A stretch of DNA of 64,000 nt from Candidatus Desulfaltia sp. (GTDB lineage: Bacteria; Desulfobacterota; Desulfobacteria; Desulfobacterales; ETH-SRB1), in the NCBI GenBank assembly GCA_030656555.1, contig JAUSPN010000106.1, positions 8,404 to 72,403 of the forward strand, in the 5' to 3' direction. The position numbers and the translations under genes are program-made. The notes beneath the pieces are model-generated. The model worked only from the letters and a program-made list of their open reading frames with translations, ran no database searches and had not been told where the DNA came from. This document shows positions 2,831 to 57,594 of the stretch, one piece after another (within the stretch, counting starts at the first letter, position 1; every line of letters starts with the position of its first letter).

Positions 2831-3800
2831 CCCTTCCCATTACTATTAATATCATTCCTTCTTTCAGTATCTGTGAAGAGGGAGGATTAAATTCAATTTC
2901 TTCAGAATTCTGTTTTGAACCTAAAACCAGCAAATTGAATTTGTCATTGATGCCTGATTCGCTGATTTTTTTCCCCCCAGCGCTTGAGTGCGCTGAAACG
3001 GTTATTTGATGGATTCTTAAATCCTGTTTTCTGCTACGAAGCATGCTGTCAAGAAAATCAACGGCAGCGGGACGGATCATTTCAGATGCCATGCGGAGCG
3101 CACCGATAAAATTCGGCGATACAACGCTGTCTGCTCCGGCCTTTTTGAGTTTCGGGATCAGCTTCTGATTTGTCATTCTGCTTATTATCCGTATGTTTTT
3201 GTTTAACATTCGCGCGGTCATTGTAATATAAAGGTTGTCCTTGTCTGAAGGAAGGGCGATGATAATGCCGGCAGCTCTTTCAATCCCTGCGGCTAAAAGA
3301 TTCTGATCATCTGTGGCATCTCCTTTAATATACATCAGGTTTTCTATCTTGCTGCACCGCTCAATATTCTTTTCATCAAGTTCTACCAGAACAACCTGCT
3401 CACGGTTTTTGACAAGTTCGTCAATTAAAGGGCATCCTGTTTCGCCGCCGCCGCATACGATATAATGGTTATTTAATTTCTTTATCTGTTTATCCATCTG
3501 TTTTTTCCTTAATATCCCGGAGATATCTCCCTCAACCAGCAATGCTGTCATGCTGCTTATGCCATAGAGCAGGATCCCCATCCCAAAAGTGATGAGAATC
3601 ATGGTAAATATCTGCGCATAGGCATTGCCTGTAACCTGGATAATCTCACCGTAACCAACGCTGGTTAATGAAATTACCGTCATGAATATACAATCTATGA
3701 ACTTTTTTCCATCAAATAGAAAATAATAGCCTGTGCTTCCTGCCGATATTACAACAAAAATGGCAATCAGTACAAAATATAATCTTTTTTTAATATTCAT
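2796..3800 (-). CDS. Potassium channel with C-terminal RCK/TrkA-N NAD-binding domain
   Basis: 334 aa with two TM helices flanking the selectivity filter TSVGYGE. Followed by a Rossmann motif IVCGGGETG and an RCK-like domain. Confidence 0.8.
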   Translation of the reverse strand: MNIKKRLYFVLIAIFVVISAGSTGYYFLFDGKKFIDCIFMTVISLTSVGYGEIIQVTGNAYAQIFTMILITFGMGILLYGISSMTALLVEGDISGILRKKQMDKQIKKLNNHYIVCGGGETGCPLIDELVKNREQVVLVELDEKNIERCSKIENLMYIKGDATDDQNLLAAGIERAAGIIIALPSDKDNLYITMTARMLNKNIRIISRMTNQKLIPKLKKAGADSVVSPNFIGALRMASEMIRPAAVDFLDSMLRSRKQDLRIHQITVSAHSSAGGKKISESGINDKFNLLVLGSKQNSEEIEFNPPSSQILKEGMILIVMGRVDDIAKARKNL

Positions 3801-33719: not shown

Positions 33720-33995
33720 TTATCCAAAAAGGTCTGAATGCGTACCGGTTCGCGTTAAATAAACGGTTTTGCTATCTGCTTTCCAGATTAGCAACCAATC
33801 AGGTTCAATATGACATTCGACATAACCTGAGTATTTGCCTTTTAAAGAATGAGGTTTATATTCCTGGGGTAGGGTGTCGCCTGATTGCAGTATTTCAATA
33901 ACTTTTTGAAGAGATTCTAAATTCTGGTTGCGCCTCTTCACTCGATTGATATCCTTAGAGAATCTTTTTGTCCATATCAGTTTCCGGGAGCTCAT
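33720..33995 (-). CDS. Type II toxin, YafQ/RelE family mRNA interferase
   Basis: 91 aa. FSKDINRVKRRNQNLESLQKVIEIL...HSLKGKYSGYVECHIEPDWLLIWK...VYLTRTGTHSDLF. Confidence 0.8.
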   Translation of the reverse strand: MSSRKLIWTKRFSKDINRVKRRNQNLESLQKVIEILQSGDTLPQEYKPHSLKGKYSGYVECHIEPDWLLIWKADSKTVYLTRTGTHSDLFG

Positions 33996-34252
33996 GCATC
34001 AATCTTCTTGAACATTTCTTCAACGGTATCTGCTGACTCAAGATTACGATTATTTTCAATGTCATCCATAGCATGTAGCGTTTCTTTGTTAGATAACCGC
34101 AAATCAAACGGAATACCCCTGTAATTGATAACCTGTTTCAAAAAAAGATTAACGGCCGAAGAGATATTTAATCCGAGACCATTTAGAATGAGCCCCGCAT
34201 CCTTTTTAATATCCTCGGTTGTTCTGACGTTTATATTTGTATTTTTAGCCAT
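33992..34252 (-). CDS. Type II antitoxin, DinJ/RelB family
   Basis: 86 aa. NINVRTTEDIKKDAGLILNGLGLNISSAVNLFLKQVINYRGIPFDL. Overlaps the toxin start by 4 nt. Confidence 0.8.
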   Translation of the reverse strand: MAKNTNINVRTTEDIKKDAGLILNGLGLNISSAVNLFLKQVINYRGIPFDLRLSNKETLHAMDDIENNRNLESADTVEEMFKKIDA

Positions 34253-54300: not shown

Positions 54301-54476
54301 CCCTTCTCCTGGAGCGGAGTTTTCAGGCGCAATTTCTTATACCCATGGCCGTCAGCATAACCTTTGGACTTCTTGTCGCCACAGTTTTGACACTTCTATA
54401 TGTTCCAGGTCTTTATCTTATTGTAAGAGATGTCAGGAATATTTTTAGAGGTTTATCGACAAAAACCCGATCCTGA
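51321..54476 (+). CDS. RND efflux transporter permease (AcrB/HAE family)
   Basis: 1051 aa. 12-TM RND architecture with two large periplasmic loops. N-terminus WSINNRVTVNLIMIFIIVAG. Confidence 0.9.
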   Translation: MESLGKWSINNRVTVNLIMIFIIVAGLITVMNMRRELNPQFALDMINISVVYPGASPEDVEEGICIKIEEKIKGIEGIDRTFSNAYEGMGSLTVELDSDADSRKVLDDIKAEIDRIDTFPEDAEDPVITEIINRHPAITVAAYGDVSEKLLRKVAEKIRDDLTDTGPISLADLVGVRDYEISIEVSEENLRRYGISFDVVVRAVKTGSVDLPGGTIKTSQGEILVRAKGQLYTGKEFKELPLITLEDGTVVRLGQVATVIDGFEDIDMKARFNGKPAALIQVNRTNTEDLILVSRTVRDYVEKHRGAMPEGVKLATWFDLSLLVQDRIDMLLRNGAQGIVLVFIALALFLNMRLAFWVSIGIPVSFMGAFMVLDYKGETINMISLFAFIMTLGILVDDAIIIGENIYTHFSRGKSPARSVIDGIKEVGGPVVMAVSTTIVAFIPLLFITGIIGKFIAVMPRAVIAILIISLGEALIMLPAHLTGALTRSALKTDSRPSWHERIRVKVEHLLNVVIEKYYTPALKYVVKNRYFAFAVGLGMLIISLGIVAGGYVPFVFFPKGESDWIIAEVGYPLGTPYEVTEKTIEHLENQAFKLNDYFGKHLGNNGGLVINTFALVGMIPRRDWKPGETGGHCGEVWIELVPSEKRHDLSVNTVLNKWRGLTGEIPGVETLTFTTLEGGPGGNPIEIQLVGGADFEQLRQAADELKTEIQTYPGTFAITDNFKPGKEERQVKIKEGAKSLGITMSDIARQLRQAFYGDEALRIQRGRDDLKVLVRYAEPDRRSISGLEDMRIRTTDGQEIPIEEVADITHGRSYSVIHRVDRKRVITVISNLDESIANASKIVADLKKDFFPKLIGRYPGLEYDLEGQEKRTRESLGSLKKGYVLALMGIFLLLASQFRSYIQPVIIMMAIPFGLIGAIAGHLVMGLQITMISIFGIVALSGIVVNDSLILIDFINRAVQNNAEIETAVIESGKVRFRPVLLTSITTIAGLLPLLLERSFQAQFLIPMAVSITFGLLVATVLTLLYVPGLYLIVRDVRNIFRGLSTKTRS

Positions 54477-54514
54477 TCCCCAACTCCTGGTCCTCATAAG
54501 CGCTAAACTGAAAA

Positions 54515-54735
54515 AAATGAACATCGAACATCGAACGTCCAACATCGAATGTTGAACTGAACAGCGAGCGCATTCCCCGCTGCTTGCGGCGGGGTTAGCG
54601 AGCGAATCAAAAAATTGACAGAATTCCTTACAGTCGAAGATTCCCCGCTGCTTGCGGCGGGGAGCTTCAATTTAAAGAGCGGAGCGACATCATTATTCGA
54701 CGTTGGACGTTCAATGTTCGACGTTGGACGTTCAT
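54515..54735. repeat. Full CCCCGC-hairpin element (plus orientation) bracketed by inverted CGAACGT-type low-complexity arms
   Basis: Arm gaacatcgaacatcgaacgtccaacatcgaatgttgaac. Core gcgagcgcattccccgctgcttgcggcggggttagcgagcgaatcaaaaaattgacagaattccttacagtcgaagattccccgctgcttgcggcggggagcttc. Arm ttcgacgttggacgttcaatgttcgacgttggacgttca. Confidence 0.8.
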
Positions 54736-54737
54736 CT

Positions 54738-55628
54738 TTATGAACCGGCAGAATGGTTCTTTATAGTATTATAGAGATCAAAAGCCTTTTCCGGGGTCTC
54801 GTTATCATGGACAACAGCACGTACAGCCTGGATCATCGCGACAGGAGACTCGGACTGGAAGATATTGCGTCCCATGTCAACACCGCTGGCGCCCTGCTTA
54901 ACTGCATTATAAGCCATTGTTAAGGCATCAAATTCAGGTATTTTTTTCCCGCCGGCCATGACAATTGGAACAGGGCACGAGGATGTGACGGTTTCAAATC
55001 CTTTTTCAATATAGTATGTTTTTATATAATTTGCCCCTAATTCAGCGCAAATCCTGACAGCGAGCCTGAAGTAGCGCGCATCGCGGTTCATATCCTTGCC
55101 GACTGCGGTGACAGCCAGGGTTGGAATTCCATAACGCATTCCCATATCCACCATGGTGGTCATGTTTTTGATCGATTCCCGTTCATGTTCGCCGCCGATA
55201 AATACCTGGACAGCCATGGCGCAAACATTGAGACGTATGGATTCTTCAATATCCACGGCAATATCTTCGTTGGAAAGTTCCTTTAGAATACTTGTGCCGC
55301 CGGAAACTCTCAGGACAATGGACTTTGTAGTTGTTGGAGGAACAATGCTCCTTAATATGCCGCGCGTTAACATAAGCGTGTCCGCATAAGGAACCAATGG
55401 AAGAATGTTTATGTCAATCCGTTCCAGGCCTGTGGTCGGACCCTGGAAATAGCCGTGGTCTACAGCCAGCATGACTGTGCGGCCGGATTCAGGGTTAAAG
55501 ATCCGGGCAAGCCGGTTTTTAATACCCCAGTCCAGAGAATTTGATCCTTTAAGAAAAAACCCTTCTGTTTTCTGGGGAATATCTGAATAAAACTTTTTAG
55601 CCTCTTTTATTTCATCTATATCAGGCAT
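54738..55628 (-). CDS. LsrF/DhnA-family class I aldolase-like enzyme (3-hydroxy-5-phosphonooxypentane-2,4-dione thiolase-like)
   Basis: 296 aa, collinear with E. coli LsrF as I recall it. Shared segments: [69 protein letters not shown]. Confidence 0.8.
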
Positions 55629-56865: not shown

Positions 56866-57336
56866 TTAATTTTCCAACAGACCGATTACCAAATCATTGG
56901 CAGGAATATCTTTCATGTTCTTCGAATAGTATGAAAATACAATTTCCCCTGTTTTGCCTATTATAAACAAAGCAGGCATAAGCCCTAATTTTGTAAGCTT
57001 CCATTCCTGCCTATATAGTTCGGCAAGTTTATGATCAGGATCCGGGATACCATAAAATGGCAGTTTGTTTTTTGAGAAATATTTTGAAGTTTTTTCAATA
57101 TCATGCGGAGCTACAACTACAATCGATGCGTTTTTAGCAACAAATTTACTGTAATCTTTTTTCATCTGATCCAGATGACTCCGAGCATACGGTCAGCTGA
57201 AGCCACGGATAAAAACAAGAACAATCAGACCGGCTTTTTTCAGATTTGAAAGACTGATGCTGTCATTGTTATATGTATGAGCAGTAAAATCAGGAGCCTT
57301 ATCACCGTTTTCAAGCAATTTAGTATTGTTTAACAT
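56866..57336 (-). CDS. Peroxiredoxin-like (AhpC/TSA-type redoxin) protein with in-frame TGA at the redox-Cys position: candidate selenoprotein, alternatively a pseudogene
   Basis: Own translation from ATG 57336: MLNNTKLLENGDKAPDFTAHTYNNDSISLSNLKKAGLIVLVFIRGFS[TGA 57195-57193]PYARSHLDQMKKDY... continues in frame into track ORF 56866..57165. Hairpin UCAUCUG-GAU-CAGAUGA starts 14 nt after the TGA. Confidence 0.5.
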
Positions 57337-57594
57337 GTCAGAATGGTTTTCCTTTCACTTATTAAAACTGATTTTTCCATATTAAGAGGTAACAGTCTAA
57401 AAAAAATGTTCAACAAATATGCCGGCCGCGAAAATGTTGCCCGACTGTTTTATACTTACTTGTTCATTGTCATTATAAATGAGTTTAGTATAAATATCAC
57501 GACAAATGCCCATAGTCAAGCCGGAGCATATTCTGAAGCAATAACAAAACCTTGGAACAGGTATATTCACGCTGTAGAAAGATCCAATGTGCCT

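What the first reader, a model, noticed from the sequence alone, without database searches (positions are those of the whole stretch)
56866..57336. In-frame TGA at the redox-active position of a peroxiredoxin-like gene, with a hairpin 14 nt downstream: candidate selenoprotein missed by the ORF track
Seen: from ATG 57336 the minus strand reads 47 sense codons (…AGLIVLVFIRGFS) and then TGA (57195-57193). It continues in the same frame (PYARSHLDQMKKDYSKFVAKNASIVVVAPHD…) to the stop of track ORF 56866..57165, for 157 codons in total. The TGA lies where related AhpC/TSA-type redoxins carry the first Cys of the F/Y-RG-x-W-C-P-x-C motif. Here the motif reads RGFS-TGA-PYA. Downstream there are 14 nt and then UCAUCUG-GAU-CAGAUGA, a 7-bp perfect stem with G in the apical loop (57178-57162). 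Established: Sec replaces catalytic Cys in Prx-like and thioredoxin-fold proteins. Deltaproteobacterial sulfate reducers have large selenoproteomes. Bacterial SECIS elements are hairpins starting roughly 11-25 nt after the UGA with a G in the loop. Inference: the TGA may be read through as selenocysteine. Caveats: the hairpin is short, and W to S plus the second C to A also fit a decaying pseudogene.
Basis: partly seen in the sequence, partly recalled or inferred. Interest (0 to 1): 0.6.

Follow-up and report, generated by a model that had tools for sequence, protein, structure and literature searches.

The report
Missed selenocysteine gene, peroxiredoxin-like redox protein
The in-frame TGA is almost certainly a selenocysteine codon in a small peroxiredoxin-like redox protein that gene finders routinely cut in two; this is a real but ordinary kind of gene for this group of anaerobic bacteria.

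Summary
On the minus strand, ATG 57336 is followed by 47 codons, TGA 57195-57193 and 109 more codons in frame to TAA 56866. A UCAUCUG-GAU-CAGAUGA hairpin lies 14 nt after the TGA.

The selenoprotein reading is strongly supported:
- In 79 of 79 alignable homologous loci from other species, across several phyla, the same column is TGA. It sits inside RGFx-U-P[YF][A/S/T/C]R, and both halves are under purifying selection.
- Cys-containing homologues exist (TGC/TGT).
- Six distant Cys forms lack the hairpin.
- In the window's clade (45 other genomes plus the window), the three hairpin-stem codons have the lowest synonymous variation of 65 conserved codon columns. The first loop G is invariant.
- Other clades carry different hairpins at nearly the same place, with compensatory changes.

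The "decay" signs are clade features. Ala, Ser or Thr replaces the second Cys in all 46, and these proteins have essentially no other Cys. Sec is therefore the only redox residue. It sits on the first position of a thioredoxin-type CxxC, and Ala sits on the peroxiredoxin peroxidatic-Cys position.

The kind is known: Prx-like / PRX_like2 selenoproteins. Public records annotate the family only as 97-103-residue fragments. Sec machinery could not be checked, because none lies in the window.

The parts
56866..57336 (-). Complete selenoprotein gene: 156 residues (Sec at residue 48) plus a TAA stop. It encodes a peroxiredoxin-like thioredoxin-fold protein.
   Evidence: Translation. Pfam AhpC-TSA matches residues 11-133 at E = 4.8e-21 and Redoxin at 1.7e-13. 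Orthologues of the same length and frame occur in 79 loci.
57334..57336 (-). ATG start codon.
   Evidence: The closest orthologues start at the same Met: MLNN(T/N)KLLE in L001, P0206 and P0240.
57347..57356 (-). Possible ribosome-binding site (GAAAGGAAAA). The spacing to the ATG is rather long, about 14 nt from GG.
   Evidence: Read from the sequence. Weak and inferred only.
57472..57500 (-). Candidate sigma-70-type promoter: GTGATA, 17 nt, TATAAT (10 of 12 matches), about 136 nt upstream of the ATG.
   Evidence: The number of such sites in the region is no higher than in shuffles, so this is only a candidate.
57196..57333 (-). N-terminal coding part upstream of the TGA. By the model of a homologue it forms the first three strands, ending in the strand that leads into the active-site turn. 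Annotators call it a separate 47-aa ORF or drop it.
   Evidence: It is conserved at the protein level in all 79 loci (APDF...GP.VLVFLRGF). Codon third positions vary freely. Median dN/dS is 0.26. In the structure model of the homologue P0257, strand 56-60 leads into the Cys.
57184..57207 (-). Active-site motif R-G-F-S-U-P-Y-A.
   Evidence: The alignment to A. pernix BCP (2cx3) puts U on the Ser/Thr of the Prx T/SxxC motif and Ala on the peroxidatic Cys. In the model of the Cys homologue P0257, the Cys caps the N-terminus of helix 67-78.
57193..57195 (-). TGA read as selenocysteine (inferred).
   Evidence: TGA is at this column in 79/79 alignable loci. TGC/TGT is at this column in Cys homologues. 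TGA still acts as a stop for 8 of 41 long ORFs in the window.
57162..57178 (-). Candidate bacterial SECIS hairpin: a 7-bp stem in this copy (conserved core 57177-57172 with 57168-57163) and loop GAU at 57171-57169. It is coding sequence for S-H-L-D-Q-M.
   Evidence: There are 21 nt between the UGA and the loop, the loop is 3 nt, and its first nucleotide is a G that is invariant in all 46 clade members. Stem codons are His CAT 46/46, Gln CAG 37/37 and Leu CTG 39/46.
56869..57192 (-). C-terminal coding part, 108 codons. The 99 codons from Met58 are what public annotation reports as a 'redoxin domain-containing protein'.
56866..56868 (-). TAA stop codon.

Best explanation
The locus is one gene for a 156-residue thioredoxin-fold, peroxiredoxin-like (PRX_like2-type) selenoprotein.

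Decoding (inferred from the known bacterial mechanism). The UGA at 57195-57193 is decoded as selenocysteine. The mRNA hairpin that starts 14-15 nt downstream (core CAUCUG-GAU-CAGAUG, first loop nucleotide G) acts as the bacterial SECIS. It tethers SelB-GTP-Sec-tRNA(Sec) so that the tRNA reaches the A site when the UGA is there.

Chemistry. Sec sits at the N-terminal cap of the first active-site helix. This is the position of the nucleophilic first Cys of a thioredoxin-type CxxC, and it corresponds to the conserved Thr/Ser of the peroxiredoxin TxxC motif. In this clade the +3 position, which is the peroxiredoxin peroxidatic Cys, is Ala, Ser or Thr, and the protein has no other Cys. The selenol is therefore the only redox centre.

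Most likely catalytic cycle (inferred). The selenol attacks a peroxide or an oxidised sulfur substrate. This gives a selenenic acid or a mixed selenenylsulfide, which an external thiol or thioredoxin-type partner resolves. That is glutathione-peroxidase-style (UxxT-like) chemistry on a Prx-like scaffold.

Shown: gene structure, conservation of the TGA, the Sec/Cys pair, RNA-level selection on the hairpin, the fold, and the position of the residue.
Inferred: actual Sec insertion, the SelB interaction, the substrate and the reductant.
For: 1. The TGA is conserved at the same column in 79/79 alignable homologous loci. They come from species-representative genomes of Desulfobacterales, Syntrophales, Myxococcota, Chloroflexota, Spirochaetota and the cultured Firmicute Alkalibacter.

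2. Nearly all database homologues are 93-123-residue fragments covering only the part after the TGA; the closest start at the Met 10 codons after it. That is the signature of gene callers stopping at a Sec codon.

3. Full-length 'W' versions are TGA read with genetic code 4.

4. Cys homologues exist with CPxC, CPHS, CPYS and CPFT motifs. Their codons are TGC/TGT.

5. Both halves are coding. dN/dS is 0.26 for the N-terminal part and 0.17 for the C-terminal part. The Pfam domain spans the TGA.

6. Hairpin, selection. Among 65 conserved degenerate codon columns in 46 genes, the three lowest codon entropies are exactly the three degenerate stem codons. The rank probability is 2.3e-5. Fisher p is 6e-6 for His and 8e-9 for Leu. 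The loop codon varies freely and the first loop G is invariant.

7. Hairpin, frequency. 57/79 Sec-TGAs have a perfect stem of at least 6 bp with SECIS geometry, against 2.4% of 7108 control TGA triplets.

8. Hairpin, other clades. They use different hairpins centred about 4-5 nt further downstream. Compensatory changes are seen, for example UGGCGC/GCGCCA versus UGAUGC/GCAUCA.

9. Hairpin, Cys forms. 0/6 distant Cys forms have the hairpin.

10. Geometry fits the published bSECIS model: loop 3-9 nt, stem 4-16 bp, G in the first two loop positions, 16-37 nt from UGA to loop (PMC13188914).

11. The model of the closest Cys homologue has pLDDT 91, with the Cys at the N-cap of the helix after strand 56-60. 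Its best structural matches are BCP/AhpE/ResA at TM 0.7-0.8.

12. No Cys occurs in the mature domain of the clade.
Against: - No selA, selB, selD or tRNA-Sec lies in the 64 kb window, so the decoding trait is unverified for this genome.
- The hairpin is short. Alone it folds at about -7.1 kcal/mol, just short of the -7.5 threshold of the published model. The local fold is not better than shuffles (z = -0.75).
- Within the window's clade the stem pairs are invariant or change only to G-U, so there is no compensatory covariation inside that clade.
- The second loop nucleotide is A here rather than the commoner G/U.
- There are no expression or protein data.
- The proposed chemistry has no direct support.
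Confidence: 0.9

Rival explanations
1. Decaying pseudogene. The TGA is a nonsense mutation in a former Cys-type redoxin, and the S and A substitutions are further decay.
For: The single sequence alone is compatible with this. The motif lacks the second Cys. One relative (L024) carries a second in-frame TGA four codons later, so decay does occur in this family.
Against: The TGA is at the same column in 79/79 loci across several phyla. dN/dS is well below 1 on both sides. Ala/Ser/Thr at +3 is fixed in a 46-genome clade. The residue before the Sec varies across the whole family. The downstream hairpin is under synonymous-site selection.
Confidence: 0.02
2. Two products or a truncated product. Translation ends at the TGA, and a separate 99-residue protein is made from the conserved ATG ten codons downstream, as public annotation has it.
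For: That ATG is invariant in the window's clade (46/46), and gene callers choose it. A GGAG lies 13 nt upstream of it in the window copy.
Against: Neither piece is a complete thioredoxin fold. The Pfam domain and the structure model need both pieces. In the other clade that position is Leu (CTG/TTG), not Met. The ATG is explained as the partner of the CAU in the stem. Most relatives have no Shine-Dalgarno-like sequence at that spot. The N-terminal part is conserved in the same frame in every locus.
Confidence: 0.03
3. The UGA is recoded, but not as selenocysteine. One possibility is Cys inserted through a SelB-like factor and a tRNA(Sec)-like tRNA charged with Cys. Such systems have been reported in some uncultured Deltaproteobacteria; this is from my memory and was not checked here. 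Another possibility is near-cognate read-through as Trp.
For: Nothing in the window says which amino acid is inserted. The hairpin would be needed in either case.
Against: About 90% of the family's sequence clusters keep TGA rather than a Cys codon, across distant phyla. That is expected if Sec itself matters. The taxa involved are the classic selenoprotein-rich anaerobes (PMC1794560, PMC13188914). TGA is an ordinary stop elsewhere in the window.
Confidence: 0.04

Closest known systems
Prx-like thiol:disulfide oxidoreductase selenoproteins (PF00578, UxxC/UxxU). Described from Geobacter, Desulfotalea, Syntrophus and marine metagenomes (PMC1088965, PMC1794560, PMC2398784).
   Same: AhpC/TSA domain. 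Sec is at the first position of a thioredoxin-like CxxC-type motif rather than at the Prx TxxU position. The SECIS lies in the ORF just after the UGA. The same kinds of anaerobic hosts carry it. The sister clade of the window's protein (Chloroflexota, Alkalibacter, some Syntrophales) is UP[YF]C, that is, UxxC.
   Different: The window's clade has Ala (or Ser/Thr) at +3 and no Cys anywhere, so no intramolecular selenenylsulfide can form.
[quoted passage not shown] It is listed in the 2026 catalogue of prokaryotic selenoproteins and attributed to the Olavius delta-1 symbiont study (PMC13188914, PMC1976440).
   Same: Probably the same or a sister family. It is a Prx-like scaffold with a single Sec and a non-Cys residue at +3, from a Desulfobacterales-type host. 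Ten of the 46 clade members have UxxS or UxxT. The cyanobacterial PRX_like2 motif YCPFCxxH (PMC3514251) resembles the family's U-P-[FY]-[C/A]-R-x-H.
   Different: Identity with the catalogue's representative MDX2448127.1 was not verified. Ala at +3 (36/46, including the window) is not a listed motif.
NCBIfam NF040769, SelL-related redox protein.
   Same: It was the top NCBIfam hit for 8 of the 9 family sequences scanned, including the window's protein. The exception is P0118, a fusion protein in which the PrxQ domain outscores it.
   Different: Scores are 55-101 bits against a cutoff of 120. In the 8 single-domain proteins only about the first 95 of 173 profile positions match. This is therefore a relative, not a member. 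No NCBIfam model captures this family, which explains the truncated RefSeq/GenBank annotations.
Peroxiredoxin Q/BCP, and ResA/TlpA-type thiol-disulfide oxidoreductases.
   Same: Same fold: TM 0.7-0.8, with PDB sequence hits 3drn and 2cx3 at 1e-9 to 1e-8.
   Different: Identity is 26% or less. The peroxidatic Cys position is Ala, and the redox residue is three positions earlier, as in ResA's first Cys.
Glutathione peroxidase (UxxT) and Sec-containing ArsC (UxxS), as functional analogues.
   Same: A single Sec at the N-terminal position of a CxxC-derived motif in a thioredoxin fold, with no resolving Cys in the motif.
   Different: A different branch of the thioredoxin-fold superfamily. No sequence-level membership is claimed.

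Membership tests
Bacterial selenoprotein gene (Sec-UGA with in-ORF SECIS) | The in-frame UGA is conserved at the same column in homologues. | tested here: met
   79/79 alignable loci have TGA.
Bacterial selenoprotein gene (Sec-UGA with in-ORF SECIS) | Homologues carry Cys at the same column (a Sec/Cys pair). | tested here: met
   P0044, P0053, P0058, P0067, P0172, P0037, P0255-57 and others have Cys there. Their codons are TGC/TGT in L083, L086-L091.
Bacterial selenoprotein gene (Sec-UGA with in-ORF SECIS) | Protein-coding conservation on both sides of the UGA in one frame. | tested here: met
   The Pfam domain spans the UGA. dN/dS is 0.26 upstream and 0.17 downstream.
Bacterial selenoprotein gene (Sec-UGA with in-ORF SECIS) | A hairpin fitting the bSECIS model: loop 3-9 nt, stem 4-16 bp, G in the first two loop positions, 16-37 nt from UGA to loop (PMC13188914). 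| tested here: met
   The window has a 3-nt loop GAU, a 7-bp stem and 21 nt of spacing. The hairpin is conserved, with synonymous-site constraint.
Bacterial selenoprotein gene (Sec-UGA with in-ORF SECIS) | Hairpin minimum free energy of -7.5 kcal/mol or lower. | tested here: inconclusive
   The hairpin alone is -7.1 kcal/mol (centroid). The local MFE with weak outer pairs is -11.5 to -12.5.
Bacterial selenoprotein gene (Sec-UGA with in-ORF SECIS) | The genome encodes selA, selB, selC and selD. | not testable with these tools
   None lies in the 64 kb window. The rest of the genome is not available.
Bacterial selenoprotein gene (Sec-UGA with in-ORF SECIS) | Selenium is present in the protein. 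| not testable with these tools
   This needs 75Se labelling or mass spectrometry.
Prx-like thiol:disulfide oxidoreductase selenoprotein (PF00578, UxxC/UxxU) | AhpC/TSA (PF00578) domain. | tested here: met
   E = 4.8e-21, 75 bits against a cutoff of 26.
Prx-like thiol:disulfide oxidoreductase selenoprotein (PF00578, UxxC/UxxU) | Sec at the first position of the CxxC-type motif, not at the Prx TxxU position. | tested here: met
   Alignments to BCP and ResA. The Cys of the homologue model sits at the helix N-cap.
Prx-like thiol:disulfide oxidoreductase selenoprotein (PF00578, UxxC/UxxU) | Cys or Sec at +3 (UxxC/UxxU). | tested here: not met
   The window has UPYA. The clade has 36 Ala and 10 Ser/Thr out of 46. 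The sister clade has UPxC in 34/34.
Peroxiredoxin-like family protein, cd02970, UxxS (2026 catalogue) | A single Sec with a non-Cys residue at +3 on a PRX_like2 scaffold. | tested here: inconclusive
   The motif type fits: UxxA/S/T, and CPFCxxH-like in Cys relatives (PMC3514251). No CDD search was possible, and the reference sequence MDX2448127.1 could not be obtained.
NCBIfam NF040769 SelL-related redox protein | Score at or above the curated cutoff of 120 bits. | tested here: not met
   The window scores 63 bits. The eight relatives score 55-101 bits.
Peroxiredoxin Q/BCP (thioredoxin-dependent thiol peroxidase) | A peroxidatic Cys in the T/S-x-x-C motif, and a score at or above the NF006960 cutoff. 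| tested here: not met
   Ala occupies the peroxidatic position. The score is 33 bits against a cutoff of 140.

The most novel reading that the evidence does not exclude
The window's clade is a Cys-free, single-selenocysteine branch of the PRX_like2 family. The peroxiredoxin peroxidatic position has become Ala, so catalysis rests on one selenol. The family as a whole is about 90% Sec-encoded across at least five phyla, unlike most Prx-like families, where Cys forms dominate. It has evolved three different SECIS hairpin solutions. If this clade has a distinct activity, such as a glutathione-peroxidase-like selenoperoxidase or a dedicated reductant of another enzyme, it would be an uncharacterised, widespread and systematically mis-annotated selenoenzyme. 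The Cys-form::PrxQ fusion P0118 hints at the reductant role.
Probability: 0.3. Interest if true: 0.45.

Novelty: new member of a known kind. Interest (0 to 1): 0.3.

Why it matters
The practical value is in annotation. This gene, and hundreds of orthologues in public genomes, are recorded as 97-103-residue 'redoxin domain-containing protein' or 'peroxiredoxin Q/BCP' fragments, sometimes with an orphan 47-residue ORF. 545 relatives were found among species-representative genomes. RefSeq WP_051374599.1 of Desulfosarcina sp. BuS5 and GenBank QSX08047.1 of Alkalibacter are examples. No NCBIfam model captures the family, so automated pipelines will keep missing it.

Biologically it adds one selenoprotein to the selenoproteome of a sulfate-reducer-type bacterium. 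It also shows a clean example of RNA-structure selection on synonymous sites inside a coding region. It does not change what is known about Sec decoding.

Tried and rejected
- **Sec machinery in the window.** ARAGORN found only tRNA-Thr. Rfam found only that tRNA. Motif scans for the SelB G1 box and the SelD GxGCK motif found nothing. This says nothing about the rest of the genome.
- **Other TGA-interrupted ORFs in the window.** By comparison with the ORF list, most candidates overlap long ORFs and none stood out. None was examined individually, and the scan's filters also failed to list the target gene itself.
- **Conserved neighbours.** ORFs within +/-3 kb of 80 loci were clustered. No partner gene is shared beyond clade-local synteny.
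- **Source genome.** The exact 99-aa product occurs on only two short metagenome contigs.
- **Structure prediction of the window protein.** The closest Cys homologue, P0257, was modelled instead.
- **Link to catalogue accessions.** Cluster look-ups did not return MDX2448127.1 or WP_010940744.1, and no supplements are held.
- **Literature.** A search for 'UxxA' found nothing.
- **Covariation inside the window's clade.** The stem is invariant, so pair counts are uninformative. The synonymous-site test was used instead.
- **Rejected: internal start at Met58, and global TGA reassignment.** See the rival explanations.

Full report
**1. The observation**

The minus strand reads ATG (57336), 47 sense codons ending VFIRGFS, TGA (57195-57193), then PYARSHLDQMKKDY... 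in frame to TAA (56868-56866). The mechanical ORF list splits this into a 47-aa ORF and a 99-aa ORF. Fourteen nucleotides after the TGA lies UCAUCUG-GAU-CAGAUGA (57178-57162). It is the centroid of the local RNA fold.

With Cys in place of the stop, Pfam AhpC-TSA matches residues 11-133 (E = 4.8e-21) and Redoxin matches 10-141. One domain therefore spans the TGA.

The hairpin alone is weak evidence:
- The z-score against shuffles is -0.75.
- 0.38% of the 2374 TGA triplets in the window have an equally good hairpin in the right place.

**2. Comparative evidence that the TGA is a sense codon**

A search of 5.8 billion proteins returned 32 relatives. Thirty-one are 95-107-residue fragments that begin at or just before the Met ten codons after the TGA. 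An exhaustive HMMER search of 1.84 billion representatives shows the same picture. So does a profile search: of 88 in-family hits, 74 are fragments.

I fetched the DNA of 80 related loci from species-representative genomes and read upstream in frame. In 79 of them the column is TGA, inside R-G-F-x-U-P-[YF]-[A/S/T/C]-R-x-H. The N-terminal part (APDF...GPVVLVFLRGF) is conserved in the same frame. The 80th locus (L004) is only a partial match. The taxa include Desulfobacterales, Syntrophales, Myxococcota, several Chloroflexota orders, Spirochaetota and the cultured Firmicute Alkalibacter mobilis.

Further points:
- dN/dS is well below 1 on both sides of the TGA, with medians of 0.26 and 0.17.
- TGA is still an ordinary stop for 8 of 41 long ORFs in the window.
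- Full-length database versions with Trp at this position are TGA read with genetic code 4 by gene callers.

**3. The Sec/Cys pair**

True Cys homologues exist. Examples are P0053, P0058, P0067, P0172 and P0255 (CPxC), P0044 (CPHS), P0037 (CPFT) and P0257 (CPYS, 53% identical to the window's protein). Their codons are TGC or TGT.

Within the family's score range, about 9 sequence clusters carry Cys. About 78 are TGA-type: 74 truncated plus 4 'W'. The truncated ones are inferred, not individually checked, to carry TGA.

**4. The hairpin**

The relatives fall into two clades by the residue at +3. Forty-six, including the window, have Ala (36) or Ser/Thr (10). Thirty-four have Cys.

In the window's clade the core CAUCUG-GNN-CAGAUG is invariant or changes only to G-U. 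Pair covariation is therefore uninformative, and the window's seventh pair is not conserved.

Synonymous sites tell the story. Of 65 conserved degenerate codon columns in the gene, the three with the least codon variation are exactly the three degenerate stem codons:

| Codon column | Usage |
|---|---|
| His +6 (stem) | CAT 46/46 |
| Gln +9 (stem) | CAG 37/37 |
| Leu +7 (stem) | CTG 39/46 |
| Another His column | CAT 30 / CAC 15 |
| Gly +8 (loop) | free: 7/15/4/7 (GGC/GGT/GGA/GGG) |

- The rank probability is 2.3e-5. Fisher p is 6e-6 for His and 8e-9 for Leu, with the caveat that the sequences are related.
- The first loop nucleotide is G in all 46.
- Amino-acid changes in the stem (Gln to Arg) keep a G-U pair.

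The Cys-at-+3 clade uses other hairpins, centred 4-5 nt further downstream:
- UGGCGC-AGUU-GCGCCA is 99% paired, with two compensatory double changes in L085 (UGAUGC/GCAUCA).
- A longer CGCGC-GCCU-GCGCG structure also shows compensatory changes.

Overall, 57/79 Sec-TGAs have a perfect stem of at least 6 bp with SECIS geometry, against 2.4% of 7108 control TGA triplets in the same loci.

Six distant Cys forms have no such hairpin. The closest Cys form (P0257, locus L091) keeps one identical to that of a Sec relative. I read this as a fossil SECIS after a recent TGA-to-TGC change.

The window's hairpin meets the published bacterial SECIS geometry of loop 3-9 nt, stem 4-16 bp, G in the first two loop positions and 16-37 nt from UGA to loop (PMC13188914). 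Here the values are 3 nt, 7 bp, G first and 21 nt. Its energy alone (-7.1 kcal/mol) is marginally short of the -7.5 threshold.

**5. What the protein is**

The PDB sequence search finds BCP/PrxQ (3drn, 2cx3) and ResA. The 2cx3 alignment puts the Sec on the Ser/Thr of the Prx T/SxxC motif and the Ala on the peroxidatic Cys.

An AlphaFold model of the closest Cys homologue has pLDDT 91. It places that Cys at the N-cap of the helix that follows strand 56-60. Foldseek's best matches are BCP, AhpE and ResA at TM 0.7-0.8 and at most 26% identity.

Proteins of the window's clade have no Cys in the mature domain. The selenol is therefore the only redox-active residue.

I infer glutathione-peroxidase-like chemistry: a selenenic acid or mixed selenenylsulfide resolved by an external thiol. 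This is not shown. A 309-residue fusion of a Cys-form domain with PrxQ (P0118) hints at a link to peroxide metabolism. No conserved neighbouring gene was found.

**6. Relation to what is known**

Prx-like selenoproteins with a thioredoxin-like UxxC motif on an AhpC/TSA domain have been known since 2004-2005. They are common in Deltaproteobacteria (PMC1088965, PMC1794560, PMC2398784). [quoted passage not shown] That is probably this family or a sister of it, but I could not obtain its reference sequence to verify this.

NCBIfam's nearest model is the SelL-related redox protein (NF040769). It scores 63 bits for the window's protein and 55-101 bits for the eight relatives tested, against a cutoff of 120. 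No curated model captures the family.

Public records annotate only truncated fragments. Examples are WP_051374599.1 (Desulfosarcina sp. BuS5), QSX08047.1 (Alkalibacter rhizosphaerae) and several MAG proteins.

**7. What remains open**

The window holds no selA, selB, selD or tRNA-Sec. The source genome could not be identified: the exact product occurs on only two short metagenome contigs. Sec insertion, the identity of the inserted residue and the enzymatic activity are inferences.

**8. Verdict**

This is a genuine but routine find: a new, mis-annotated member of a known kind of bacterial selenoprotein. Its mildly unusual features are the absence of any Cys (a single Sec) and a family that is predominantly Sec-encoded. 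Confidence that it is a real selenoprotein gene is about 0.9. Interest is 0.3.

Noticed in passing
window 54476-54738: An intergenic stretch between an RND-type pump ORF and the next gene is packed with repeats. There is a 36-nt inverted repeat (54520-54555 and 54690-54725, 86% complementary). There are tandem 21-mers TCAxTxTTCGACGTTGGACGT at 54690-54731. There are also two exact 23-nt copies of ATTCCCCGCTGCTTGCGGCGGGG, at 54572 and 54640, each itself a GC-rich hairpin. It might be a small mobile or repetitive element.
   Followed up: no
P0054/L085:641-700, P0206, P0240, P0252, P0258, P0260-P0262: Metagenome gene callers that switched to genetic code 4 produced full-length versions of this selenoprotein with Trp at the Sec position. 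P0206 even reads through what appears to be its terminal stop (two Trp follow the conserved C-terminus ...LLEN). In L085 the codon is TGA, followed by a SECIS-like hairpin.
   Followed up: yes
L091 (P0257): The closest Cys-containing homologue has TGC but keeps the hairpin GCAUCU-CGGGC-AGAUGC, identical to that of the Sec form in L011. This is an apparent fossil SECIS after a recent Sec-to-Cys change, or a sequencing variant on a 559-bp contig.
   Followed up: partly
L024 (about 2971-3030) and L032, same MAG CAWKLD01: One MAG carries two paralogues. L024 has a second in-frame TGA four codons after the Sec codon (UPFA*IHLGQ). It is probably a decaying copy or an error.
   Followed up: no
P0118 (309 aa): A natural fusion of a Cys-form domain of this family (CPYC, N-terminal) with a PrxQ/BCP peroxiredoxin (C-terminal). 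It may be a functional link between the two.
   Followed up: partly
L011, L012, L030, P0257, P0172 (N-termini): By eye, several family members have signal-peptide or lipoprotein-like N-termini and so are presumably exported. The window's copy has none and is presumably cytoplasmic.
   Followed up: no
L088 (Cys form P0058): Downstream of its TGT there is a GGCG-CUUUUA-CGCC hairpin at the place where Sec relatives have UGGCGC-AGUU-GCGCCA, but with no G at the start of the loop. It may be a degraded SECIS remnant.
   Followed up: no
window 33720-34252, minus strand: Two small overlapping ORFs (86 aa and 91 aa) look by eye like an antitoxin-toxin pair. They lie in a 5-kb stretch of short genes. 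This was not checked against any library.
   Followed up: no
P0003 (149 aa): One database homologue has an aberrant N-terminal extension that joins the conserved part just after the Sec position (...GRLDPISYARRHLGQM). It is probably a gene call started in another frame or a frameshifted contig.
   Followed up: no
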